A DNA stretch of 64,000 bases from Psychromonas sp. (GTDB lineage Bacteria; Pseudomonadota; Gammaproteobacteria; Enterobacterales; Psychromonadaceae): NCBI RefSeq assembly GCF_047632995.1, contig NZ_JBLIEK010000002.1, forward strand, positions 6,285-70,284. The letters run 5' to 3'. The position numbers were made by a program, and so were the translations under genes. The notes below the pieces were generated by a model that was not told the origin of the DNA, searched no databases, and was given only the letters and a program-made list of their open reading frames with translations. This document shows, in pieces, positions 24,648 through 43,570 of the stretch (positions are counted from its first letter, which is position 1; the number at the start of each line of letters is the position of its first letter).

Positions 24648-27600
24648 TTAATTCATATTGAATTTTTTACGCAAGCTGATTTTTTTCCATTGGAAATAGA
24701 CCGAAGGTAAAATAAGCAAGGTCAAAATAATTGCGCTGACCATGCCGCCGATCATCGGTGTTGCTATACGCTGCATTACCGATGATCCCGTTCCATCCCC
24801 AAACATAATAGGGACTAAACCCATCACCACAACGGCCACTGTCATCATCACGGGTCGCACACGTAACCCTGCCCCTTCCATTACCGCTTCTTTTAAATCC
24901 CTGACATTAAAATGCTCAAGACGTTGCATCTTTTTAGCTTCTAAGGATTGGTTTAAATATAAAAGCATAATGACGCCAATCTCTATCGAGACACCGGCAA
25001 GTGCGATAAAACCGACCCCGACCGCAACCGAGAAGTTAAAACCAAGCAGGTACATCAGCCAAATCCCCCCCATTAAAGCAAATGGCAGTGTGGATATAAT
25101 CAGCAAGACCTCCCCGACGCGGCGGAAGGCTAAATACAGTAGGATAATTATGATAGCGAGTGTCACCGGTATCACTTTTGCCAAACGTGCATTGGCTTTT
25201 TCCATATATTCATATTGTCCAGACCAGACGATTGAATATCCTCCCGGTAACGTTAGTTGCTCATTAACAATCTGCTGTGCATCTTCAACATAAGAGCCCA
25301 AATCACGATTTTCAATATCAACAAAAATCCAACCATTAAGACGCGCATTTTCTGTTTTTATCATCGGCGCGCCCGCTTCGATATAAACATCCGCGACATC
25401 AGCTAAGCTGATATTCATTTTGCTTGGCGTGACAATCGGCAGACTTTTGAGTGCGCTTACTGAGTCGCGATAATCATTCGGATAACGTAAATTGACCGGA
25501 TAACGCTCCAGCCCTTCAATGGTTTCGGTGATATTTTTACCGCCAATAGCAACCGCAACCAGTTGCTGTATTTCGGCAATATTTAGCCCGTAACGCCCCG
25601 CTTTTGCACGGTTAATATCGACTTTCACATAACGACCACCCGTTACTCGCTCTGCGTATACTGAGGCAGTACCCTCTACATCTTTTAAGATAGTCTCAAT
25701 CTGCTTACCAATTTTTTCAATCTCACCTAAATCCGCGCCCGCTATTTTGATACCAATCGGCGTTTTAATACCCGTTGCTAACATATCGATACGCGTTTTA
25801 ATCGGCATCACCCAAGCATTAGTTAAACCGGGGAATTGAATCAGACTATCGAGCTCTTCTATGATCATTTTTTTGGTCATGCCCGCTCGCCATTGATCTT
25901 TAGGTTTGAATTGAATGGTGGTTTCAATCATAGTCAGAGGCGCAGGATCGGTAGCGGTTTCAGCGCGGCCAATTTTCCCCCACACGGTTTTAACTTCCGG
26001 TAGCGTTTTAATCAGTTTATCGGTTTGCTGTAATAATTCACGCGCTTTACCAATAGAAATCCCCGGATAAGTGGTCGGCATATACATCAAGTCGCCTTCA
26101 TCGAGCGGTGGAATAAACTCACTGCCGATTTTACTCACCGGATAGAATCCAACTAATAAAACAGCTAATGCAAAGCTAATAGCCAACTTTGGAAAACGTA
26201 AGCTCAACGCCAACACAGGGGTATATAAAGCCACCAGAAAACGGTTTAATGGGTTTTTATGCTCAGGTAATACTTTACCGCGAATAAAATAGCCCATTAA
26301 CACCGGAATTAAGGTGATTGCCAAACCCGCTGAGGCGGCCATTGCATAGGTTTTAGTAAACGCCAGTGGCGAGAACATCTTGCCCGACTGCCCCTCTAAG
26401 GCAAAAACAGGCAAGAAACTAAAGGTAATAATCAGTAATGAGAAAAACAGTGCGGGGCCAACCTCAAGGGTCGCTTTACTTATCACCTGCCATCGATTTT
26501 CATCGGTAAGCTCTGTTTTCTCCATATGTTTATGGACGTTTTCAATCATCACTATCGCGCCATCGACCATTGCACCAATGGCGATAGCGATACCACCAAG
26601 CGACATAATGTTGGCGTTAATTCCCTGCCACGACATAATAATAAAGGCGACAAAAATCCCTACCGGTAAACTTAATAACACCACTAACGCAGAGCGGAAA
26701 TGGAATAAGAAAGCTGCACAGACCAAAATCACCACGACAAATTCTTCGAGTAATTTATGGTAAAGATTTTCTACGGCATTACCAATTAACACTGAGCGAT
26801 CATAGGTGGTAACAATTTCCACCCCATCGGGCAAGCTTTTTTGCAGCTCATTAAGTTTGTCTTTAACTGCGGCAATCACCCCCTGTGCATTCTCGCCATA
26901 GCGCATCACAATCACGCCACTGACTACTTCACCTTCACCGTTAAGTTCAGTAATGCCACGGCGCATTTGTGGGCCTAAGTTAATGGTCGCCACATCCCCT
27001 AATAAAAGCGGAGTGCCTTTGCTGTTCACTTGTAATGGAATAGATTTGAGATCAGCAATTGAGGAGATATAACCCGAGGTGCGCACCATATATTCGGCTT
27101 CGCCCATCTCGATAACACTGGCCCCACTTTCTTGGTTGGCATTTTGAATCGCAGTGCTGATTTTATTAAGCGGCAAGTTATAAGCGCGCAGTTTGTTCGG
27201 ATCAACACGCACTTGATACTGCTTAACCATGCCGCCGACGGTCGCCACTTCCGAGACACCCGCAACGGTTTGCAGTTCAAATTTTAAAAACCAGTCCTGC
27301 AAACTGCGCAGCTCACTTAAATCATGTTTCCCGCTTTTATCCACCAGCGCGTAACTAAAAATCCAGCCCACGCCCGTTGCGTCCGGTCCTAATGCCGAGC
27401 GTGCCGCCTCCGGCAGATCCGGTGCAACTTGCGACAAATATTCTAAAACACGAGAGCGCGCCCAGTAGATATCGGTATTGTCATCAAAAATGATATACAC
27501 ATAAGAGTCGCCAAAAAATGAGTATCCTCGCACCGTCTTTGCGCCCGGCACCGACAGCATAGCGGTGGTTAACGGATAAGTGACCTGATCTTCAACCACT

Positions 27601-27776
27601 TGCGGCGCCTGCCCGGGATAGCTGGTTTTAATAATAACCTGCACATCAGAGAGATCGGGAATAGCGTCGATCGGTGTTTTCTGCAGAGAAAACACCCCGT
27701 AAGCGACAATCGCAACGGTTATCAACAAAACCATAATACGGTTTTTAATAGACCAATTTATAATTTTCGCAATCAT
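24648..27776 (-). CDS. cusA: CusA/CzcA family heavy-metal RND pump
   Basis: IDAIPDLSDVQVII, YPLTTAML, GAMVDGAIVMIEN, PPLDEGDLMYMP, RVRPVMMT. Confidence 0.95.
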   Translation of the reverse strand: MIAKIINWSIKNRIMVLLITVAIVAYGVFSLQKTPIDAIPDLSDVQVIIKTSYPGQAPQVVEDQVTYPLTTAMLSVPGAKTVRGYSFFGDSYVYIIFDDNTDIYWARSRVLEYLSQVAPDLPEAARSALGPDATGVGWIFSYALVDKSGKHDLSELRSLQDWFLKFELQTVAGVSEVATVGGMVKQYQVRVDPNKLRAYNLPLNKISTAIQNANQESGASVIEMGEAEYMVRTSGYISSIADLKSIPLQVNSKGTPLLLGDVATINLGPQMRRGITELNGEGEVVSGVIVMRYGENAQGVIAAVKDKLNELQKSLPDGVEIVTTYDRSVLIGNAVENLYHKLLEEFVVVILVCAAFLFHFRSALVVLLSLPVGIFVAFIIMSWQGINANIMSLGGIAIAIGAMVDGAIVMIENVHKHMEKTELTDENRWQVISKATLEVGPALFFSLLIITFSFLPVFALEGQSGKMFSPLAFTKTYAMAASAGLAITLIPVLMGYFIRGKVLPEHKNPLNRFLVALYTPVLALSLRFPKLAISFALAVLLVGFYPVSKIGSEFIPPLDEGDLMYMPTTYPGISIGKARELLQQTDKLIKTLPEVKTVWGKIGRAETATDPAPLTMIETTIQFKPKDQWRAGMTKKMIIEELDSLIQFPGLTNAWVMPIKTRIDMLATGIKTPIGIKIAGADLGEIEKIGKQIETILKDVEGTASVYAERVTGGRYVKVDINRAKAGRYGLNIAEIQQLVAVAIGGKNITETIEGLERYPVNLRYPNDYRDSVSALKSLPIVTPSKMNISLADVADVYIEAGAPMIKTENARLNGWIFVDIENRDLGSYVEDAQQIVNEQLTLPGGYSIVWSGQYEYMEKANARLAKVIPVTLAIIIILLYLAFRRVGEVLLIISTLPFALMGGIWLMYLLGFNFSVAVGVGFIALAGVSIEIGVIMLLYLNQSLEAKKMQRLEHFNVRDLKEAVMEGAGLRVRPVMMTVAVVVMGLVPIMFGDGTGSSVMQRIATPMIGGMVSAIILTLLILPSVYFQWKKISLRKKFNMN

Positions 27777-29215
27777 AACGTCACCTCTTGAGTGACCCTG
27801 CCGAAATGAGGGCTATCAGATAAGCCTACATCCAGCCAATCCAAATCATCCTCGGCCAGGCTCGGGTCGTACTCCGGCTCAAGCGCTTGCTTTTCATCCC
27901 GCTTTGACATGCGCTCAAAATCAGCGCTAATACTGGACTCAGAATCTAACAGGAACTGCGCAGAGGTAACGATTTTTTGCCCTTCAGTTAAACCCGATAA
28001 GACTTCCACCGAATTTTTATTTTCCAGCCCTAAATGAACAATCACAGATTTAAAATGACCATTACCTTTAGCGAGCACGACTCGATTCATGTTACCGGCA
28101 TAAATTACCGCTTCGCGTGGAATCTGCAGTGTGCGTTTCTTCATTTGCGGGGTTAGCGTGACACTGGCAAACATATTAGGTTTTAATTGTGCTGCCGGGT
28201 TATCGAATTGCACACGAACTCGTAAGGTACGATTACTGGCATTCATCTCAGGGTAGATAAAATCAACCTGTCCGTCCCATTGCTTTCCCGGAAAATAATC
28301 TAACGTCATAGAGGCTGAATCGCCAAGCTTAACTAATGATACTTGTGCCGCAAAAACTTCAACGTCCACCCAAACCGTATCTAAATTAACCGCTTCAATC
28401 ACCACAGTAGCAGGTGAAATAAACGCCCCTTCATTTAATTTCAGTTCCGAAATGGTGCCTTTTTGCGGCGCGTAGACAGTGATATTCTGCAATACTTTTT
28501 TATTTCTGATTATCTTTTCAATTTGTCCATTACTTACCCCTAATGCATTTAAACGCGTTTTTGATGCACTAATCAAAGCGCTACGATTTAAATTAAGCGC
28601 ATTAAACAGTGACTCCTGGGCTTTTACCAACTCAGGGGAATAAAGTTCAAACAGGGGTTGCCCTTTTTTAACTTCAGCGCCCACCGATTTGACATGAAGT
28701 TTTTCAATCCACCCTGAAACACGGCTATTGATTTGCCACAACTCATTGTCATTGGCCTGCACTGTGCCTAATGTATTGATGGAGATATTTAATGGCTCAT
28801 TAACCACCAAACCGGTGCGTACGCCAAGGTTATTTTCAACAGCAGCGGAGATAGTCACCAAACCAGCTTCAGACCCAGCCTCTTCATATACAGGTACTAA
28901 ATCCATTCCCATCGGGGATTTACCCGGTTTGTCTCTTTGATAATTGGCATCCATCGGTGCCACCCAGTACGAAATTTTAGGCTCTGCTTTTTGCGCATTT
29001 TTCACTTCGGCATAAACAGCCACTAAATCCATTCCCATGGGGGATTTTCCCGGTTTGTCACGCTGATAATTGGCATCCATAGGCGCAACCCAATACAGGA
29101 TTTCTGGCTCTGCTGTTTTTTCTGTTGAGGTAAATAAAGCATTGATTTGCGCGCTCGTCGCTACGAAGAAGCCAATCAATAAACCGACAATTAACACTAA
29201 TAAATAACGCATCAT
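27773..29215 (-). CDS. cusB: CusB family membrane fusion protein with two heavy-metal-binding repeats
   Basis: WVAPMDANYQRDKPGKSPMGMDLV twice, LYSPELVKAQ, LKPNMFA, SAQFLLDSES. Confidence 0.92.
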   Translation of the reverse strand: MMRYLLVLIVGLLIGFFVATSAQINALFTSTEKTAEPEILYWVAPMDANYQRDKPGKSPMGMDLVAVYAEVKNAQKAEPKISYWVAPMDANYQRDKPGKSPMGMDLVPVYEEAGSEAGLVTISAAVENNLGVRTGLVVNEPLNISINTLGTVQANDNELWQINSRVSGWIEKLHVKSVGAEVKKGQPLFELYSPELVKAQESLFNALNLNRSALISASKTRLNALGVSNGQIEKIIRNKKVLQNITVYAPQKGTISELKLNEGAFISPATVVIEAVNLDTVWVDVEVFAAQVSLVKLGDSASMTLDYFPGKQWDGQVDFIYPEMNASNRTLRVRVQFDNPAAQLKPNMFASVTLTPQMKKRTLQIPREAVIYAGNMNRVVLAKGNGHFKSVIVHLGLENKNSVEVLSGLTEGQKIVTSAQFLLDSESSISADFERMSKRDEKQALEPEYDPSLAEDDLDWLDVGLSDSPHFGRVTQEVTL

Positions 29216-29224
29216 AATTTCCTA

Positions 29225-30529
29225 TTAAAGTGCCTGAAAATAACGGATTTTAGACAGGCTTTTCAGACCATCGAAATACAGTTGTTGATATTCTAAAGAG
29301 AGGTTCTGTTCGTGGATGTAAGCATCAATCACATCATTAAAGGAGCGTGTATTAGACTGGTAACTTTCCTCCAGCAACTTAACATGCAGTTTCGCCTGTT
29401 CCAGAAGACTCTCTTGGTAACGGGTTATCCGTTCTTGTAGCTGCTGATAATTAACAATTTCGGCCGTTAACAGGGTATTTAACTGGCGCAGTAACAGACG
29501 CTGTTGCGCTTGTTTCTCTCCTTTTACTTGCTGTGCTGAAATGAGTTTTTGATCTTGGCGCTTATCGGTAAACAGCGGAATATCCATCGACACAAAACCA
29601 CTGAGCAGATCCGACCTAGGTTCGCCCATCTCGGTTTCACTTAACCTATGCCCGTAACCCACTTCCAGCTTAAAGCTGGGTTTGTAATCCTGTTCGGCAA
29701 GCTCGATGCGGTTATCTGCCAGCAGCACATTTTGCGCCAACAGTTTGGCTTTAGGGTGGCCACTGAGCAGCGTGTAATGATCCTGCTGTTTGCCATTGGC
29801 GAGATTTACATAAATGCGGGTTTCTGACCACTGCGGAATATCACTAGGCAGTGGCTGATAGGCGTACTGACCAATCCACTCGCTTAACAAACTGCGGTAA
29901 TTAAGCGATTGCTGGGTTAATCCGGCAATTTTATCATCGAATTTATTAAGCTCAATTTCAGCCGCAATCAGATCCTCACTCTCGCTAAGCCCCAGTGAAA
30001 ATTTGGATTGTAGGTCGCGATAAAAAGCAGAAAAAAGCGCTCTATTTTCGCTTACCAAATCCTGCGACTTTTCAACAAAAAGGATGCTAAACCACAGCTG
30101 CTGTACGCTTCGTTTCACCATCAGTTGGCGATCTGCCCCCTGCAACACGGCAAGATCGGATTGCTGGTTAAAGCCTTTTTGGGTCAATTCACGTTGCGAA
30201 CCACGACTAAATTGTTGCGATAACCCCACGGTGAGTTGCGTCATAGGATCTTTGTCTAATTGAAAACTGTCTGTCGGCACGTTGGCCACACCCAGTTTTA
30301 TCATAGGATCGGCCAGCGTCGAACTGGCAATGCCCTGTGCTATCAATGCAGCTTGTTGGGATTGATATATTTGCTGCGCAGGATCTGAGGCAAGCGCCAT
30401 CTGCTCAGCTTGATCAAGGCTAATACCTTGCGCAAAGAGGTTAAAACTAAGCAAAAACGTAAAACCAAATAGGCTGTTAAAGCGCAAACGCTTGCTTGAT
30501 ATAAAATATTTAGTGATGTTCATCACCAC
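29225..30529 (-). CDS. TolC-family outer-membrane factor of the Cus-type system
   Basis: Signal peptide, DPMIKLGVANVP, SMDIPLF; directly upstream of cusBA. Confidence 0.88.
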   Translation of the reverse strand: MVMNITKYFISSKRLRFNSLFGFTFLLSFNLFAQGISLDQAEQMALASDPAQQIYQSQQAALIAQGIASSTLADPMIKLGVANVPTDSFQLDKDPMTQLTVGLSQQFSRGSQRELTQKGFNQQSDLAVLQGADRQLMVKRSVQQLWFSILFVEKSQDLVSENRALFSAFYRDLQSKFSLGLSESEDLIAAEIELNKFDDKIAGLTQQSLNYRSLLSEWIGQYAYQPLPSDIPQWSETRIYVNLANGKQQDHYTLLSGHPKAKLLAQNVLLADNRIELAEQDYKPSFKLEVGYGHRLSETEMGEPRSDLLSGFVSMDIPLFTDKRQDQKLISAQQVKGEKQAQQRLLLRQLNTLLTAEIVNYQQLQERITRYQESLLEQAKLHVKLLEESYQSNTRSFNDVIDAYIHEQNLSLEYQQLYFDGLKSLSKIRYFQAL

Positions 30530-30699
30530 ACTCCTTTATTACAATGCCTGCTATTGCCACCTTTTCTCTTTTCTAAAAAAGTAACAAAGGGTAAACAGAG
30601 GCATTAAGTAAAATTAAATTAATCTATTTATTGATAAATAAAGTCTAAAAAACAAAAAAAATCAAAGTGTTACTTCAACTAAAATGAAGCAAAAAACAG

Positions 30700-31059
30700 T
30701 TAACTTAGAAAGGGGGGCCGATATAAAGATTCAGGAAAGTAATAGGGGGAGGCAGCGTTACCAGTTGGGTAAGTAAGCAGTAACGGAGGCTGATAAAGAT
30801 GTCGGTGTGGGTCAATAAAAGAAAGCACCGCAGGCACAGTCATAAAATCACAATCGCCTTGACAGTCCATGGTATGAGACATTCCATCACCACAATCTGT
30901 TCTACTCATATCCATCTGCGCTTCATTGAAACCCATAGAGATGGGACAATTCACCATCGAAGCCGTTTTATTTTCTAATAGAGGTGCAAACGCCGTGACT
31001 TTCTGAGTGAAAGTTAGCAGAGTTGTAAGCATCAAAATTAACGTAATAAATCGTTTCAT
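30700..31059 (-). CDS. Cys/Met/His-rich small protein ending in RPP (DUF2946/CzcI-like leader)
   Basis: Hydrophobic N-terminus, CQGDC, terminal SLYRPPFLS; first gene after a CueR promoter. Confidence 0.65.
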   Translation of the reverse strand: MKRFITLILMLTTLLTFTQKVTAFAPLLENKTASMVNCPISMGFNEAQMDMSRTDCGDGMSHTMDCQGDCDFMTVPAVLSFIDPHRHLYQPPLLLTYPTGNAASPYYFPESLYRPPFLS

Positions 31060-31090
31060 ATTTCAAATCGACAGGTGAAGGAATAAAAGT

Positions 31091-31121
31091 ATATTAGGCT
31101 ATCCCCTAGGGGTAAGGTCAA
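31091..31121 (-). promoter_or_regulatory. CueR/MerR-type promoter of the cus operon
   Basis: TTGACC-TTACCCCTAGGGGATAGCC(19 bp)-TAATAT. Confidence 0.85.
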
Positions 31122-36597: not shown

Positions 36598-36628
36598 TTG
36601 ACCTTACCCTAGGGGTAACGACTAAGCT
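36598..36628 (+). promoter_or_regulatory. CueR/MerR-type promoter of the copA operon
   Basis: TTGACC-TTACCCTAGGGGTAACGAC(19 bp)-TAAGCT. Confidence 0.88.
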
Positions 36629-39585: not shown

Positions 39586-39642
39586 ATAATCTTGCAGATC
39601 TTCATGTTTAAAAATGCAGCCGATATAAGTACGGAGGAAGTT

Positions 39643-40008
39643 ATGAATAATATCGAGCACCGAATCGGTGTTACAGAAGTTAATTTAGTTATCCGAAAAC
39701 TTCAACTAACAGGACTAACTGAATTTAACCGGGCGAAAATCATCTCTGAAATAGATGCAGCTTTTGGCATTGATAACGTAACACTTGATATTAAAGACGG
39801 TCTACTGCAGATGGCTTATGATGTCACTCATCTGAATTTAGATGCCATTGAACTCATCGTACGTAAGCATGGTGCAGATATCTCTAGCAGTTGGTGGAAC
39901 CATTTAAAAGAAGGTTATTATAAGTTCGTTGATCAAAATATGCTGGAAAATATCAAACATAAGCCATCTTGTTGCAGTCGACCACCTCAAGGCACGAAAC
40001 ACAAATAG
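39643..40008 (+). CDS. HMA-like hypothetical protein of the copA operon
   Basis: GGAGG RBS before ATG 39643; ferredoxin-like pattern, C-terminal HKPSCCSRPP. Confidence 0.65.
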   Translation: MNNIEHRIGVTEVNLVIRKLQLTGLTEFNRAKIISEIDAAFGIDNVTLDIKDGLLQMAYDVTHLNLDAIELIVRKHGADISSSWWNHLKEGYYKFVDQNMLENIKHKPSCCSRPPQGTKHK

Positions 40009-40086: not shown

Positions 40087-40476
40087 ATGTTAACTATCAG
40101 CCAAGTAGCTAAAGAAACGAGTTTATCTGTTAAATCTATTCGTTATTACGAACAGATAGGTTTAACCAGTGCACCACCTCGTAGCGAAAATGATTACCGC
40201 TATTATCCAAGCGCTTTAATCAAACAACTACATTTTATAAAAAAAACCAAAGACGCAGGCTTTAGTTTAAAAGAAAGTAAAGAATTATTAGCGTTATCTG
40301 AAAATAGCGGTAGAAGAAGTGCCGATGTAAAAGCGCTTCTATCTCAAAAAATTGAAGAATTACAAACAAAAATAAATCGAGAACAAGAGCTACTAGAGAG
40401 ATTGAAAAACATCACCCAAAAATGTTGTGGAGATGAAAAACCAAATTGCCCAATTATTGATGAATTTGCAAATTAA
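40087..40476 (+). CDS. cueR: Cu(I)-responsive MerR-family regulator
   Basis: SIRYYEQIGL, RSENDYRYY, C-terminal CCGDEKPNCPII. Confidence 0.93.
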   Translation: MLTISQVAKETSLSVKSIRYYEQIGLTSAPPRSENDYRYYPSALIKQLHFIKKTKDAGFSLKESKELLALSENSGRRSADVKALLSQKIEELQTKINREQELLERLKNITQKCCGDEKPNCPIIDEFAN

Positions 40477-41216: not shown

Positions 41217-41546
41217 TTAAGTCAGAACATGGATAATTGGAGGTCGAAATAGACGCGAGCTATGTTGGCTGAGTCGATCTCTTTTATAATCAAAAAAGTC
41301 TAACCGCGCAAAAAATAGCGTTTCATTTAAATAATTTAATTGTTGATCTGCAAAAGATAAAACAGAAGCGGTTGAACAACAGTTATTCGTATTCTTATCA
41401 GTGTTCTCATTATCATTACTTATGCAGCTTTCTATGGCAGACATAGAAGGATCCGTTGCTAGTTCAGCTTGCGCTGAAAACACACCGATAAATATTAATG
41501 ATATTATTAAGAAAATATTTAAGCTTAGTTTCATAAACTTGCACAA
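41217..41546 (-). CDS. Second small exported-type protein ending in RPP
   Basis: Hydrophobic N-terminus, CC motif, RLFRPPIIH; first gene after a CueR promoter; start may be 41534. Confidence 0.6.
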   Translation of the reverse strand: MCKFMKLSLNIFLIISLIFIGVFSAQAELATDPSMSAIESCISNDNENTDKNTNNCCSTASVLSFADQQLNYLNETLFFARLDFFDYKRDRLSQHSSRLFRPPIIHVLT

Positions 41547-41563
41547 TTAGGTTAGATACAAAA

Positions 41564-41594
41564 ATAATAAACCATCCCCTTAGGGTAATGTCAA
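41564..41594 (-). promoter_or_regulatory. CueR/MerR-type promoter of the RPP-DUF411 unit
   Basis: TTGACA-TTACCCTAAGGGGATGGTT(19 bp)-TATTAT. Confidence 0.85.
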
Positions 41595-42313: not shown

Positions 42314-43570
42314 TTAAAAGTTAATTTTCACCTGATAACTGGATCCTTCAATCTTATCCCAATAAGACCAGTTATAGTTGGCTGCTAGTTTTTTGGTTAG
42401 ACGCAGTCCCAAACCAAACCCCAAATCGGAACTATCAATAACCTTATCTTCACTGGCATTAACAATTGACACACTTCCTTTAACTTGAGATATACTCACT
42501 TTGCCTTCAATCGTATGTTGAAAAGCATTACGAATAAGATTAGCCAGTATGATCCTGCAGGGAATTGCAGCCACATTAATGGTATAAGGCGCTATATCGA
42601 CTTCCAGCTGTATCTGTTTATTTTCCAGTAAGTAACCAATTTCCCCGACTAACTGCTCAATCAATTGCGCAATATCTACTTTCTCATTAGCAGGCAGATT
42701 AGCATCGTCTCTGCTCAGCCATAATAATGTTTCAGTTAAATTAGTCATGGTTTTGCCAGCACGATCTATTCGCTCTAACACTGCAAACTGTTTTTTTGTG
42801 CCCCCCTCTTTTTCATGTAACTTTATAAGCAATTCGGTATTAGCCCGAACCACACTGATCGGTGTCCTCAATTCATGGCTGGCATAAGAGAGGAACTGCA
42901 ATTCCCTGCTGAGTGTTTCCTGAACGGAGTCCAAGCTGGAATTTATTATTTCAGCAAGGGTATTAAGTTCACTATATTGAAAATCAGGGATAGGCTGCGT
43001 TAATTTATCTTCATCTAAAGATTTAGCCCAATCTTTGAGCGATTCCACCGGCTTTGCCACTTTACGAATAATAAAAAGAACAACTAATAAGAAAAGCCCG
43101 ATTGCCGCGATAGCAAAAACACCTATCCATGCAATATGGGGGATACCATGATGCTTTCCGGGCCGCACATCCGCTTTATTAATAATTTTTGATATATACC
43201 TTAACTGTCCTGCTTTATTAACCGCTTTAAGAACAAAATAGATCTCTTCTGGTGGCCTAAACAGACCTGAGCTGACCGCTCTTTTTTCTAGGGTGTAACT
43301 TTCTACTGGCGGGGTATTATCGAAGATCTCTTTTACTCGGTTTGGCACATCCTCCCAGGAACTGGCGATATGAAATCCGAGGAGCAACACCGGCTTGCCT
43401 TTTTGGCTGCCTTGAATTTCAGCGGCTTCCATTAAGGATTGTTTAATCCCTCTATCCAGCCCTTGAGTGAAGTAATTAAGTGTTAACGCTGAAAAAGAAA
43501 CGGTCATAACAAAGCCAAGCAATAACATGGCTACTGTAAAGTAAATTTTAAGACTGGGCTTTATTTTCAT
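42314..43570 (-). CDS. Sensor histidine kinase
   Basis: Two TM, FLSYASHELRTP, NLIRNAFQH, GFGLGL. Confidence 0.9.
   Translation of the reverse strand: MKIKPSLKIYFTVAMLLLGFVMTVSFSALTLNYFTQGLDRGIKQSLMEAAEIQGSQKGKPVLLLGFHIASSWEDVPNRVKEIFDNTPPVESYTLEKRAVSSGLFRPPEEIYFVLKAVNKAGQLRYISKIINKADVRPGKHHGIPHIAWIGVFAIAAIGLFLLVVLFIIRKVAKPVESLKDWAKSLDEDKLTQPIPDFQYSELNTLAEIINSSLDSVQETLSRELQFLSYASHELRTPISVVRANTELLIKLHEKEGGTKKQFAVLERIDRAGKTMTNLTETLLWLSRDDANLPANEKVDIAQLIEQLVGEIGYLLENKQIQLEVDIAPYTINVAAIPCRIILANLIRNAFQHTIEGKVSISQVKGSVSIVNASEDKVIDSSDLGFGLGLRLTKKLAANYNWSYWDKIEGSSYQVKINF

What the first reader, a model, noticed from the sequence alone, without database searches (positions are those of the whole stretch)
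30530..31121. Candidate copper-sensing ribosome-arrest leader (RPP) ahead of the Cus operon
Seen: the first ORF after the CueR promoter has a hydrophobic N-terminus, a CQGDC/Met/His cluster, a Pro-rich tail and LYRPP three residues from the stop. It precedes an exported outer-membrane factor by 170 nt. Known: Bordetella CruR (DUF2946; N-terminal helix, CxxC, RAPP) acts in cis by ribosome stalling, and RAPP-like motifs arrest ribosomes. Inference: a second, translational layer of copper control on an efflux rather than uptake system.
Basis: partly seen in the sequence, partly recalled or inferred. Interest (0 to 1): 0.68.

Follow-up and report, generated by a model that had tools for sequence, protein, structure and literature searches.

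The report
CutF-like copper leader peptide before cusCBA
A small exported peptide gene sits between a copper-responsive promoter and a copper efflux pump operon. It looks like a built-in sensor that pauses its own ribosome to switch on pump translation, a design already catalogued in other bacteria but never tested for an efflux pump.

Summary
A 119-aa ORF (31059..30700) follows a CueR-type promoter. It has a signal peptide, four conserved Cys including C66xxxC70, and ends SLYRPPFLS*. It lies 176 nt ahead of an OMF–CusB–CusA operon. In 88 relatives, mostly Psychromonas, SLYRPP is nearly invariant. Five different Arg codons are used, exactly three residues follow RPP in 86/88, and the last Cys lies 46 residues before the second Pro in 78/88.

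It matches the published rule set for CutF-like leader peptides in size and geometry (CutF: 118 aa, C69xxxC73, PPP114-116). It does not match Pfam DUF2946 by HMM or by profile-profile comparison, and YRPP is not an RxPP (RAPP-like) motif. Öztürk et al. 2023 already list outer-membrane efflux genes as the commonest neighbour of CutF-like genes.

New here is a conserved, covarying leader RNA. A helix contains the uORF stop codon and closes a three-way junction. A long hairpin follows. The pump's Shine-Dalgarno region is predicted to pair with Pro/Phe codons at the uORF 3' end.

The best reading is a cis-acting, periplasmic-copper-tuned ribosome pause that unmasks OMF translation. This is inferred, not shown (confidence about 0.55). 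It is a new member of a known kind.

The parts
31091..31121 (-). CueR/MerR-type promoter: TTGACC, 19-nt spacer with dyad, TAATAT
   Evidence: Read directly. The same design lies upstream of copA (36598-36628) and of the second leader (41594-41564). It is conserved upstream of the uORF in L001-L010 and L015-L025. A CueR-like regulator gene lies at 40087-40476 (TIGR02044, 142.5 bits).
30700..31059 (-). Leader-peptide gene (uORF), 119 aa including the TAA stop
   Evidence: There are 73 close and about 20 more distant homologues. Purifying selection acts at the peptide level.
30991..31059 (-). Signal peptide (residues 1-23; MKR, a 14-residue hydrophobic core, VTA|FA)
   Evidence: This is the only confidently modelled helix in AF2. 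Mean column identity is 0.80, higher than the mature region at 0.55-0.57. F17, Q19 and K20 are invariant.
30850..30948 (-). Cys/Met/His cluster: C38, C56, C66-xxx-C70 (candidate periplasmic Cu site)
   Evidence: The four Cys are conserved. 86/88 members have CxxxC and 71/88 have exactly 4 Cys. CutF also has 2 upstream Cys plus CxxxC (bioRxiv 10.1101/2025.02.05.636593).
30814..30846 (-). Conserved hydrophobic segment FMTVPAVLSFI (residues 72-82) immediately after CxxxC
   Evidence: Alignment A1 gives the consensus FMTVVSVLYFIEH. The block 66-83 has identity 0.76.
30712..30729 (-). S-L-Y-R-P-P candidate arrest motif (RPP codons 30720..30712)
   Evidence: L112, Y113, R114, P115 and P116 are invariant. 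Arg uses CGC/CGG/CGT/CGA/AGA. Three codons then a stop follow in 24/24 loci and 86/88 proteins.
30739..30758 (-). Predicted anti-SD strand (P0 5' strand) inside the uORF. In most relatives it is the Y-Y-F-P codons, UAUUACUUUCCU.
   Evidence: The SD core is paired with uORF Pro/Phe/Ser codons at p about 0.9-1 in 20/20 loci. The duplex is stronger than with control coding windows (median fraction about 0.05). It is not clearly better than synonymous recodings.
30693..30707 (-). P1 5' strand: last two sense codons, the TAA stop and the following nucleotides (UAAGUUAACUGUUUU)
   Evidence: 295/330 cells are paired versus 116-209 in shifted registers. Covariation is C-G<->U-A and G-C<->U-A. Helix 1 is 91% paired in the formal count.
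30672..30690 (-). Hairpin HP1
   Evidence: 5 of 6 pairs show compensatory changes. 6 of 6 pairs show changes on both sides in A7.
30631..30665 (-). Hairpin HP2 (UUGAU...AUCAA with a variable inner stem)
   Evidence: Helices 3 and 4 are 85% and 79% paired. The inner stem shows changes on both sides in 6 of 6 pairs.
30615..30630 (-). Conserved box AAAUAGAUUAAUUUA, the P1 3' strand
   Evidence: It sits at a constant 67-78 nt after the stop in most loci, 91 nt in L008. It pairs with the stop-codon region in all loci, including L021 with a 336-nt spacer.
30543..30605 (-). Long hairpin HP3, ending about 6 nt before the SD
   Evidence: The basal 8 pairs show compensatory changes, for example AAUGCCU:AGGCAUU here versus ACUCCUGU:ACAGGAGU elsewhere.
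30513..30541 (-). OMF ribosome-binding region: SD AAGGAG (30536..30531), ATG 30523, and hairpin HP4 (30529..30513) with the AUG in its loop
   Evidence: The spacer GUGAU can pair either with uORF codons (P0) or with OMF codons 3-4 (HP4).
24648..30523 (-). Regulated operon: OMF (30523..29225), CusB-like adaptor with two HMBD repeats (29215..27773), CusA/CzcA-family RND pump (27776..24648)
   Evidence: PF02321; PF16576 plus PF19335; TIGR00914 at 1284.7 bits.

Best explanation
The 119-aa ORF is a cis-acting leader peptide of the CutF-like class. It adds a periplasmic copper check to a pump operon whose transcription is already switched on by the cytoplasmic sensor CueR.

Proposed sequence of events (all steps inferred unless marked):
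1. CueR fires the 19-bp-spacer promoter. The promoter design is shown; CueR binding to it is inferred.
2. The uORF is translated and its very hydrophobic, unusually conserved signal peptide takes the nascent chain co-translationally to SecYEG.
3. When the ribosome reaches R114-P115-P116, the CxxxC motif lies 46 residues back. That is about the length of the exit tunnel plus the translocon, so the four Cys and the adjacent hydrophobic segment are at or beyond the periplasmic face.
4. Without copper, folding, disulfide formation and translocation pull on the chain, and the PP pause resolves. With Cu(I) bound to the thiols the pull is lost and the ribosome lingers on SLYRPP.
5. In the free mRNA, the OMF Shine-Dalgarno region and AUG spacer are paired (P0) with pyrimidine-rich Pro/Phe codons in the last ~45 nt of the uORF. 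Helix P1 (which contains the stop codon and closes the HP1/HP2 junction) and hairpin HP3 bring these two strands together. The paused ribosome fills the ~25-nt single-stranded gap between P0 and P1. Alone by steric exclusion, or together with a queued second ribosome, it keeps the anti-SD codons occupied. The SD is then free, the spacer refolds into HP4 with the AUG in its loop, and the OMF (and, by coupling, the pump genes) is translated.

Shown here: the ORF, its conservation pattern, the fixed spacings, helices P1, HP1, HP2 and HP3 with covariation, and the gene context. Inferred: arrest, copper dependence, sign of regulation and P0 opening.
For: Peptide-level selection:
- L-Y-R-P-P is invariant in 30/30 aligned homologues and R-P-P in 21/21 including distant ones.
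- Arg uses 5 synonymous codons, with synonymous variation also at Ser, Leu and Tyr.
- The conservation profile is that of a nascent-chain sensor, not a folded protein: signal peptide 0.80, CxxxC plus hydrophobic block 0.76, C-terminal motif 0.96, the rest 0.55-0.57.
- AF2 gives mean pLDDT 48.5, with residues 27-106 below 50.

Molecular rulers:
- Exactly 3 residues follow RPP in 86/88 members.
- The last Cys lies 46 residues before the second Pro in 78/88.
- The geometry is almost identical to CutF: 118 aa, C69xxxC73, P114-116, 2 residues to the stop (PMC8456105).

Context:
- The gene always heads OMF-CusB(-CusA) in 13/13 genome loci.
- Distant SLYRPP relatives in other genomes do the same.
- A CueR-type promoter is conserved upstream.
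- A second leader of the same design lies behind another CueR promoter in the window.

RNA:
- P1, HP1 and HP2 are 86.4% paired versus 77.2±0.9 in shuffles (0/500). 18 pairs change on both sides versus 11.3±1.9. Slid controls give 34-54%.
- P1 includes the stop codon.
- The element is single-copy and specific to this leader: 13 of 25 genomes of the genus, 0 of 16 other genera of the order.
- The SD is predicted paired to uORF codons in 20/20 loci, with duplexes of 11-13 contiguous bp in several loci.
- In the short-spacer subfamily (L011-13) the partner is the PP codons themselves.
- A stalled plus queued ribosome lowers the SD opening energy by about 3 kcal/mol on average.

Precedent: CutF and CruR work in cis through C-terminal proline motifs (PMC9973294, PMC9426467, PMC12992588).
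Against:
- YRPP is neither RAPP/RGPP nor PPP. RPP is not depleted in this proteome, so arrest strength is unknown and EF-P may resolve it.
- In the thermodynamic model a single ribosome stalled at RPP does not open the SD (10.9 vs 10.6 kcal/mol). In this window even the queued model gives no change.
- The anti-SD pairing is not clearly better than synonymous recodings (10 loci, fraction >= natural 0.03-0.70). It may therefore be a by-product of Pro/Phe-rich coding, and it cannot be tested by covariation because one strand is coding.
- The 160-200-nt structured spacer is longer than most CutF-like spacers (<100 nt, PMC9973294).
- The A7 alignment was fitted to the model, which inflates pairing.
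- A four-Cys exported peptide could also act in trans.
Confidence: 0.55

Rival explanations
1. The ORF encodes an ordinary small exported copper-binding protein that works in trans, for example a chaperone or pump accessory replacing the missing CusF. SLYRPP would then be a protein-protein contact or stability motif, and the leader RNA would be unrelated housekeeping structure.
For: There are four conserved Cys plus Met/His in an exported protein. No cusF gene lies between OMF and adaptor. CutF itself was first interpreted as a chaperone (PMC8456105). RPP is not an avoided sequence in this proteome.
Against: No folded domain is predicted: pLDDT is below 50 for residues 27-106. The signal peptide and the last 12 residues are more conserved than the mature body. 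The distances from RPP to the stop and from Cys to PP are fixed. The stop codon is embedded in a covarying helix. The adaptor already carries two metal-binding HMBD repeats.
Confidence: 0.2
2. CruR-type logic: the ribosome arrested at RPP controls Rho-dependent transcription termination in the long spacer rather than SD access, possibly with copper relieving instead of prolonging the arrest.
For: CruR is the closest prototype with Arg next to PP. It uses a long intergenic region and Rho (PMC9426467). The spacer here is long (160-207 nt in most loci). The single-ribosome model does not open the SD.
Against: The spacer has C 13% and G 16% (G>C) and is almost fully folded into P1, HP1, HP2 and HP3, which makes it a poor rut site. 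For an efflux pump, copper-relieved arrest leading to termination would have the wrong sign. No intrinsic terminator is present.
Confidence: 0.12
3. The uORF is translated constitutively and serves only to open the leader RNA (translational coupling at a distance) or to stabilise the mRNA. Copper is sensed solely by CueR, and the Cys residues and RPP have no sensing role.
For: Any ribosome crossing the last 45 nt melts the predicted anti-SD. The anti-SD signal is largely explained by amino-acid composition.
Against: This does not explain the invariance of SLYRPP, the four Cys, the 46-residue ruler, or the conserved signal peptide.
Confidence: 0.1

Closest known systems
CutF of Rhodobacter capsulatus (cutFOG; Öztürk et al. 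2021, 2023, 2025: PMC8456105, PMC9973294, bioRxiv 10.1101/2025.02.05.636593)
   Same: Size is almost identical (118 vs 119 aa). Both have a Sec signal peptide and two upstream Cys plus CxxxC at nearly the same positions (C69/C73 vs C66/C70). The proline motif sits at residues 114-116, with 2-3 residues to the stop. Both are the first gene of a copper-detoxification operon. The proposed logic is the same: copper prolongs the stall and an SD-masking RNA opens. The ORF meets every published rule for 'CutF-like'.
   Different: The motif is SLYRPP rather than GPPP. The downstream gene is an RND outer-membrane factor, not a multicopper oxidase. The spacer is 176 nt with a three-way junction and a long hairpin, instead of one short stem-loop. 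The predicted anti-SD lies inside the uORF coding region. The promoter is CueR-type, whereas cutF expression was reported not to be Cu-regulated (PMC8456105). Sequence homology to CutF was not tested.
CruR (Bp2923, DUF2946) of Bordetella pertussis (PMC9426467; arrest shown in PMC12992588)
   Same: A small leader with a hydrophobic N-terminus, a Cys motif, Arg plus PP near the C-terminus, a long spacer, cis action and a copper link.
   Different: CruR has CxxC and RAPP, belongs to PF11162, precedes a TonB-dependent uptake receptor, is switched off by copper, and acts through Rho. The present family gives no PF11162 hit and 1.8% hhalign probability. Its spacer is G>C and structured.
CutF-like proteins upstream of OEP genes, including SilD/CusD of Cupriavidus (network in PMC9973294)
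   Same: The same gene order: a small Cys-containing, PP-terminated exported ORF followed by a cusC/czcC/silC-type OMF. The literature reports this as the most frequent context.
   Different: Those are catalogued only bioinformatically. Whether this Psychromonas family is in that list could not be checked, because the held supplements contain neither 'Psychromonas' nor the motif. No leader RNA structure has been described for them.
SecM, MifM, VemP and the RAPP peptides ApdA/ApdP/ApcA
   Same: A C-terminal arrest near the stop of an exported or membrane-targeted leader. Release depends on pulling force at the translocon. The stalled ribosome remodels mRNA to expose a downstream SD.
   Different: Those monitor the secretion machinery, not a metal. 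Their motifs are RAGP/RAPP/RAPG or unrelated. The SD-masking stem directly abuts the stall site.
CopL of Xanthomonas/Stenotrophomonas
   Same: A cis-only small ORF required for copper-induced expression of the downstream copper-resistance gene. It is grouped with CutF-like proteins (PMC9973294).
   Different: The downstream gene is the oxidase CopA. The sequences were not compared here.

Membership tests
Pfam DUF2946 (PF11162) | Match to the family HMM above the gathering score (23.7 bits) | tested here: not met
   No hit for the ORF at E<=1. No hit anywhere in the genome at E<=1. None of 21 family members hits it at E<=10. The same HMM finds 49 of 351 genomes of the phylum.
Pfam DUF2946 (PF11162) | Detectable remote homology (profile-profile) | tested here: not met
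   hhalign of the 20-sequence family profile against 26 DUF2946 proteins gives probability 1.8%. Only the N-terminal hydrophobic stretch aligns.
Pfam DUF2946 (PF11162) | Central CxxC and C-terminal RAPP | tested here: not met
   This family has CxxxC and YRPP. 24 of the 26 extracted DUF2946 proteins end in RAPP and two in RGPP, each followed by 1-10 further residues, and all contain a CxxC (which my extraction filter required).
CutF-like proteins (rule-based class of Öztürk et al. 2021/2023) | Fewer than 150-170 residues and no Pfam domain | tested here: met
   119 aa with no Pfam-A hit.
CutF-like proteins (rule-based class of Öztürk et al. 2021/2023) | N-terminal signal peptide | tested here: met
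   MKR, then 14 hydrophobic residues, then VTA|FA by inspection. AF2 models a helix at residues 2-23 with pLDDT 73-83. No dedicated signal-peptide predictor was available.
CutF-like proteins (rule-based class of Öztürk et al. 2021/2023) | CxxxC (or a Cys variant) in the central region | tested here: met
   C66-QGD-C70 here. Present in 86/88 family members.
CutF-like proteins (rule-based class of Öztürk et al. 2021/2023) | [quoted passage not shown] | tested here: met
   P115-P116, 3 residues from the stop, in 86/88.
CutF-like proteins (rule-based class of Öztürk et al. 2021/2023) | [quoted passage not shown] | tested here: met
   The OMF lies 176 nt downstream, followed by CusB-like and CusA/CzcA-family genes.
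CutF-like proteins (rule-based class of Öztürk et al. 2021/2023) | Recovered by the authors' iterative jackhmmer profiles (sequence link to CutF) | not testable with these tools
   Their profiles and list D are not held. The held supplements do not mention Psychromonas or the motif.
RAPP-like arrest peptides (ApdA/ApdP/ApcA/CruR; PMC12992588) | Core motif R-[A/G]-P-P (or RAGP/RAPG) at the peptidyl-transferase centre | tested here: not met
   The motif is L-Y-R-P-P-F. Arg is adjacent to PP with no small residue between them.
RAPP-like arrest peptides (ApdA/ApdP/ApcA/CruR; PMC12992588) | Motif near the C-terminus of a small secretory or membrane protein encoded upstream of the regulated gene | tested here: met
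RAPP-like arrest peptides (ApdA/ApdP/ApcA/CruR; PMC12992588) | Translation arrest, refractory to EF-P | not testable with these tools
   This needs toeprinting or a PURE-system assay.
Arrest-peptide leaders that unmask a downstream SD (SecM/MifM/VemP/CutF type) | The downstream SD is sequestered in RNA structure that the stalled ribosome disrupts | tested here: inconclusive
   The SD is predicted paired to uORF 3' codons in 20/20 loci and more strongly than to control windows. However, the pairing is not clearly better than synonymous recodings, and it is not opened by a single modelled ribosome.
CueR (MerR-family) regulon promoter | -35 and -10 hexamers separated by 19 bp with a dyad in the spacer; cognate CueR gene present | tested here: met
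   TTGACC-19-TAATAT with the CCCCTAGGGG dyad. Two more such promoters are in the window. The regulator at 40087-40476 best matches CueR TIGR02044, at 142.5 bits against a cut-off of 147.4, so just below the equivalog threshold.

The most novel reading that the evidence does not exclude
The locus is a two-input AND gate for copper. CueR reports cytoplasmic Cu(I) at the promoter. A nascent-chain sensor reports periplasmic copper at the ribosome. The second signal is read out by a previously undescribed leader RNA architecture. The ribosome parks on SLYRPP in a ~25-nt single-stranded window framed on the 5' side by the anti-SD codons (P0). On the 3' side it is framed by a covarying helix that contains the uORF stop codon and begins about 10 nt downstream of the P-site (P1). 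Unmasking of the pump's SD would then depend on steric exclusion or on a collided second ribosome. This would be the first HME-RND efflux pump shown to be under arrest-peptide control. It would also add a new arrest motif class (SLYRPP, neither RAPP nor polyproline).
Probability: 0.3. Interest if true: 0.65.

Novelty: new member of a known kind. Interest (0 to 1): 0.42.

Why it matters
Copper/silver RND pumps are textbook examples of purely transcriptional control by CusRS or CueR. If this leader works as proposed, pump synthesis also depends on a co-translational measurement of periplasmic copper by the nascent chain. The published CutF-like catalogue suggests that thousands of metal-efflux operons may do the same, but none has been tested.

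This family is a clean test case. It has an invariant six-residue motif, fixed molecular rulers and a compact covarying leader RNA, and it occurs once per genome. It also offers a natural arrest motif (SLYRPP) distinct from RAPP and PPP for ribosome-stalling studies.

Tried and rejected
1. DUF2946/CzcI membership. Pfam and NCBIfam scans of the ORF, of 21 family members and of the whole genome found nothing. hhalign against 26 DUF2946 proteins gave 1.8%. Rejected as a homologous member.
2. A DUF2946 alignment via the search for homologous proteins returned only the query. I used genome hits instead.
3. Known RNA family. Rfam gave no hit at E<=1.
4. Intrinsic terminator or attenuator. Only two weak consensus hits appeared: one is HP4 around the OMF AUG and one lies inside the uORF. 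Neither lies in the spacer between the uORF stop and the OMF ribosome-binding site.
5. Rho site. The spacer is G>C and structured, so this is disfavoured.
6. A direct 'one stalled ribosome opens the SD' model. ViennaRNA constraint folding showed no effect.
7. Selection for the anti-SD beyond coding needs. The synonymous-recoding control was not clearly significant.
8. A folded periplasmic domain. AF2 confidence was low, so no fold search was run.
9. A third leader at C71:9512-9802. It lies antisense inside an 892-aa gene and is spurious.
10. A repeat or mobile element explanation for the leader RNA. It is single-copy per genome.
12. The supplement search for Psychromonas or the motif in the CutF-like list found nothing held.
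13. A literature search for YRPP/LYRPP/SLYRPP found nothing relevant.
Full report
**Observation**

The feature is on the minus strand. A MerR/CueR-type promoter comes first: TTGACC at 31121..31116, a 19-nt spacer with the dyad CCCCTAGGGG, and TAATAT at 31096..31091. It is followed by an SD-less ~30-nt 5' UTR and a 119-codon ORF at 31059..30700.

The product is MKRFITLILMLTTLLTFTQKVTAFA|PLLENKTASMVNC38...C56...C66QGDC70DFMTVPAVLSFI...PYYFPESLYRPPFLS*.

An outer-membrane factor (PF02321) starts 170 nt (GTG) or 176 nt downstream. The 176-nt start is ATG 30523, preceded by AAGGAG. It is followed by a CusB-like adaptor with two HMBD metal-binding repeats and a CusA/CzcA-family RND pump (TIGR00914, 1284.7 bits).

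A CueR-like regulator gene lies at 40087-40476. It best matches TIGR02044 at 142.5 bits, just under the 147.4 cut-off. Two further promoters of identical design precede copA and a second small ORF.

**Is it more than chance?**

L[YF]RPP occurs three times in all six-frame ORFs of the 4.1-Mb genome. A genome-wide screen looked for small ORFs with a hydrophobic N-terminus and RPP/RxPP/PPP in the last 12 residues. It returns only this ORF, the second leader at 41534..41217, and one spurious antisense ORF.

**The family**

A search of 5.8 billion proteins found 73 homologues (47-75% identity), all unnamed or 'hypothetical'. Where named, they come from Psychromonas or a related marine isolate. An exhaustive profile search of 1.84 billion representatives found only 23 clusters.

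- In 30 aligned sequences, L112, Y113, R114, P115 and P116 are invariant, as are F17, Q19 and K20 in the signal peptide. C38, C56, C66 and C70 are invariant or nearly so.
- Including the most distant members, R-P-P remains invariant.
- Mean column identity is 0.80 for the signal peptide, 0.57 for residues 28-65, 0.76 for CxxxC plus the hydrophobic block, 0.55 for the linker, and 0.96 for PYYFPESLYRPP.
- At the DNA level, Arg114 is encoded by CGC, CGG, CGT, CGA or AGA in 24 distinct loci. Ser, Leu and Tyr also vary synonymously. Selection is therefore on the peptide.
- RPP is followed by exactly three codons and a stop in 24/24 loci and 86/88 proteins.
- The last Cys lies 46 residues before the second Pro in 78/88, although the linker between them is poorly conserved.
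- AlphaFold2 with the family alignment gives mean pLDDT 48.5. Only the signal-peptide helix is confident.

This is the signature of a nascent-chain device rather than of a folded periplasmic protein.

**Context**

All 13 genome loci and the informative metagenome loci have the order leader, spacer (94-336 nt, mostly 160-207), OMF, adaptor. L001-L010 and most metagenome loci keep the 19-bp-spacer promoter.

Three distant relatives ending SLYRPP plus 2-3 residues also precede OEP-CusB(-CusA). One contig carries two divergent leader-OMF-adaptor units back to back.

**Leader RNA**

The spacer is not a known Rfam family. It contains four conserved structures.

- *P1.* The last two sense codons, the stop codon and the next ~7 nt (UAAGUUAACUGUUUU) pair with a conserved box (AACAGAUUAAUUUA) 67-78 nt downstream in most loci. 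In 22 loci, 295 of 330 cells pair, versus 116-209 in shifted registers. Two positions covary cleanly: C-G x9 with U-A x11, and G-C x10 with U-A x10.
- *HP1 and HP2.* P1 encloses two hairpins.
- *HP3.* A ~60-nt hairpin follows and ends about 6 nt before the SD. Its base covaries (AAUGCCU:AGGCAUU here, ACUCCUGU:ACAGGAGU elsewhere).
- *HP4.* The OMF AUG sits in the loop of a small hairpin.

A covariance model of P1, HP1 and HP2 finds exactly one copy at every leader. On the resulting alignment:

- 86.4% of cells pair, versus 77.2±0.9 in shuffles (0/500).
- 18 of 32 pairs change on both sides, versus 11.3±1.9 in shuffles.
- Slid registers give 34-54%.
- Caveat: the alignment was fitted to the model.

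In whole genomes the element is single-copy. It is present in 13 of 25 genomes of the genus and in none of 16 other genera of the order.

**SD masking**

In partition-function folds of 20 loci, the OMF SD core is paired (p about 0.9-1) with pyrimidine-rich codons in the last ~50 nt of the uORF. The usual partner is Y-Y-F-P (UAUUACUUUCCU against AGGAAAGUGAU, 11-13 contiguous bp). In this window and L002 it is Ser-Pro codons. In the short-spacer subfamily it is the Pro-Pro codons themselves.

These duplexes are stronger than those with control coding windows of the same loci (median fraction about 0.05). Two controls weaken the case:

- Synonymous recodings of the uORF pair almost as well.
- A single modelled ribosome on RPP does not lower the SD opening energy (10.9 to 10.6 kcal/mol). 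A stalled plus a queued ribosome lowers it to 8.1 on average, but not in this window.

Geometrically, with P115 in the P-site the anti-SD strand ends about 16 nt upstream and P1 begins about 10 nt downstream. The ribosome therefore just fills the single-stranded gap between the two helices. This follows from the coordinates, and its consequence is inference.

The spacer is C 13%, G 16% and almost fully structured, and it has no intrinsic terminator. This disfavours a CruR-like Rho mechanism.

**Comparison with the known**

CruR (DUF2946; CxxC; RAPP) controls a TonB receptor through arrest and Rho, with copper relieving arrest (PMC9426467). Its arrest has been shown in vitro (PMC12992588).

CutF (118 aa; signal peptide; C69xxxC73 plus two upstream Cys; P114-116; two residues to the stop) senses periplasmic copper during co-translational export. 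Copper prolongs an EF-P-sensitive stall that melts a stem-loop masking the cutO SD (PMC8456105, PMC9973294, bioRxiv 10.1101/2025.02.05.636593).

The present ORF meets every rule of the published CutF-like class and copies CutF's geometry almost residue for residue. It fails every DUF2946 test. It is also not RAPP-like, which requires R-[A/G]-P-P. RPP itself is not depleted in this proteome (59 observed, about 52 expected).

Öztürk et al. 2023 state that OEP genes of RND systems are the most frequent downstream neighbours of CutF-like genes, and they label SilD and CusD as members. So the kind is known from bioinformatics. I found no experimental study of an efflux-associated member.

**Verdict**

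The locus is very probably a cis-regulatory leader peptide, but its prototype is CutF rather than CruR/DUF2946, and the concept is already in the literature.

What this work adds:
- a distinct sequence family with an invariant SLYRPP+3 motif
- two molecular rulers
- a covarying leader RNA that incorporates the uORF stop codon
- the pairing of this device with a CueR promoter, twice in one regulon

Arrest, copper dependence, sign and cis action are all untested.

Noticed in passing
window 41217-41594 (minus strand): A second leader of the same design. It has a CueR-type promoter (TTGACA-19-TATTAT) and a 105-aa ORF with a signal peptide, Cys37/52/53 and the hydrophobic VLSF block, ending SSRLFRPPIIHVLT*. 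A DUF411/CopG-like gene starts 38-50 nt downstream. Three homologues keep LFRPPI invariant. No stable RNA structure is predicted in its short spacer (z = 0.29).
   Followed up: partly
window 42314-43570 (minus strand), residue ~102-107 of the 418-aa histidine kinase: The only other L[YF]RPP in the genome's six-frame ORFs is SSGLFRPPEE, in the sensor part of a histidine kinase next to another RND operon. It is probably coincidence.
   Followed up: no
window 30712-30717 and the equivalent codons in 23 other loci: The two Pro codons of RPP are never CCG (0/48), and the second is always CCY (24/24). Yet CCG is the commonest Pro codon in the large genes of the window (55 of 141). This could reflect the CCUCC anti-SD potential or a tRNA-Pro isoacceptor effect on stalling. 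The loci are not phylogenetically independent.
   Followed up: partly
window 31060-31090 (minus strand) and the equivalent in L001-L025: The uORF has no Shine-Dalgarno sequence, but its short 5' UTR is conserved (TTCACC-N2-TCGAYTTRAAT-ATG). UCACC is complementary to the GGUGA/GUGA just before the OMF start codon. The role is unknown.
   Followed up: no
L029:1-4793: Two divergently transcribed units sit back to back on one metagenome contig, each a leader followed by an OMF-like gene; an adaptor gene (CzcB-like) is seen only after the minus-strand unit, the plus-strand unit running off the locus. One leader ends SLYRPPILS*. The other ends SLRPPIA* and carries a CHHCCHCHGVAC cluster.
   Followed up: partly
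L021:1863-2200 and L016:1860-2400: L021 has an insertion that lengthens the spacer to 336 nt, yet it keeps the box and the P1 pairing. L016 keeps the uORF but has lost most of the leader, and no OMF gene follows within 500 nt (a rearranged locus).
   Followed up: no
window 39592-40008 (plus strand): A 138-aa ORF between copA-associated genes and cueR ends ...KPSCCSRPPQGTKHK. It has no signal peptide and is probably unrelated to the leaders.
   Followed up: no
L031-L060 (DUF2946 loci from 351 genomes of the phylum): Among 26 DUF2946 proteins extracted with a filter that required CxxC and a C-terminal PP, 24 end in RAPP and 2 in RGPP, followed by 1-10 residues. The C-terminal placement of the arrest motif is therefore family-wide, as in the present family.
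   Followed up: partly
   Followed up: no
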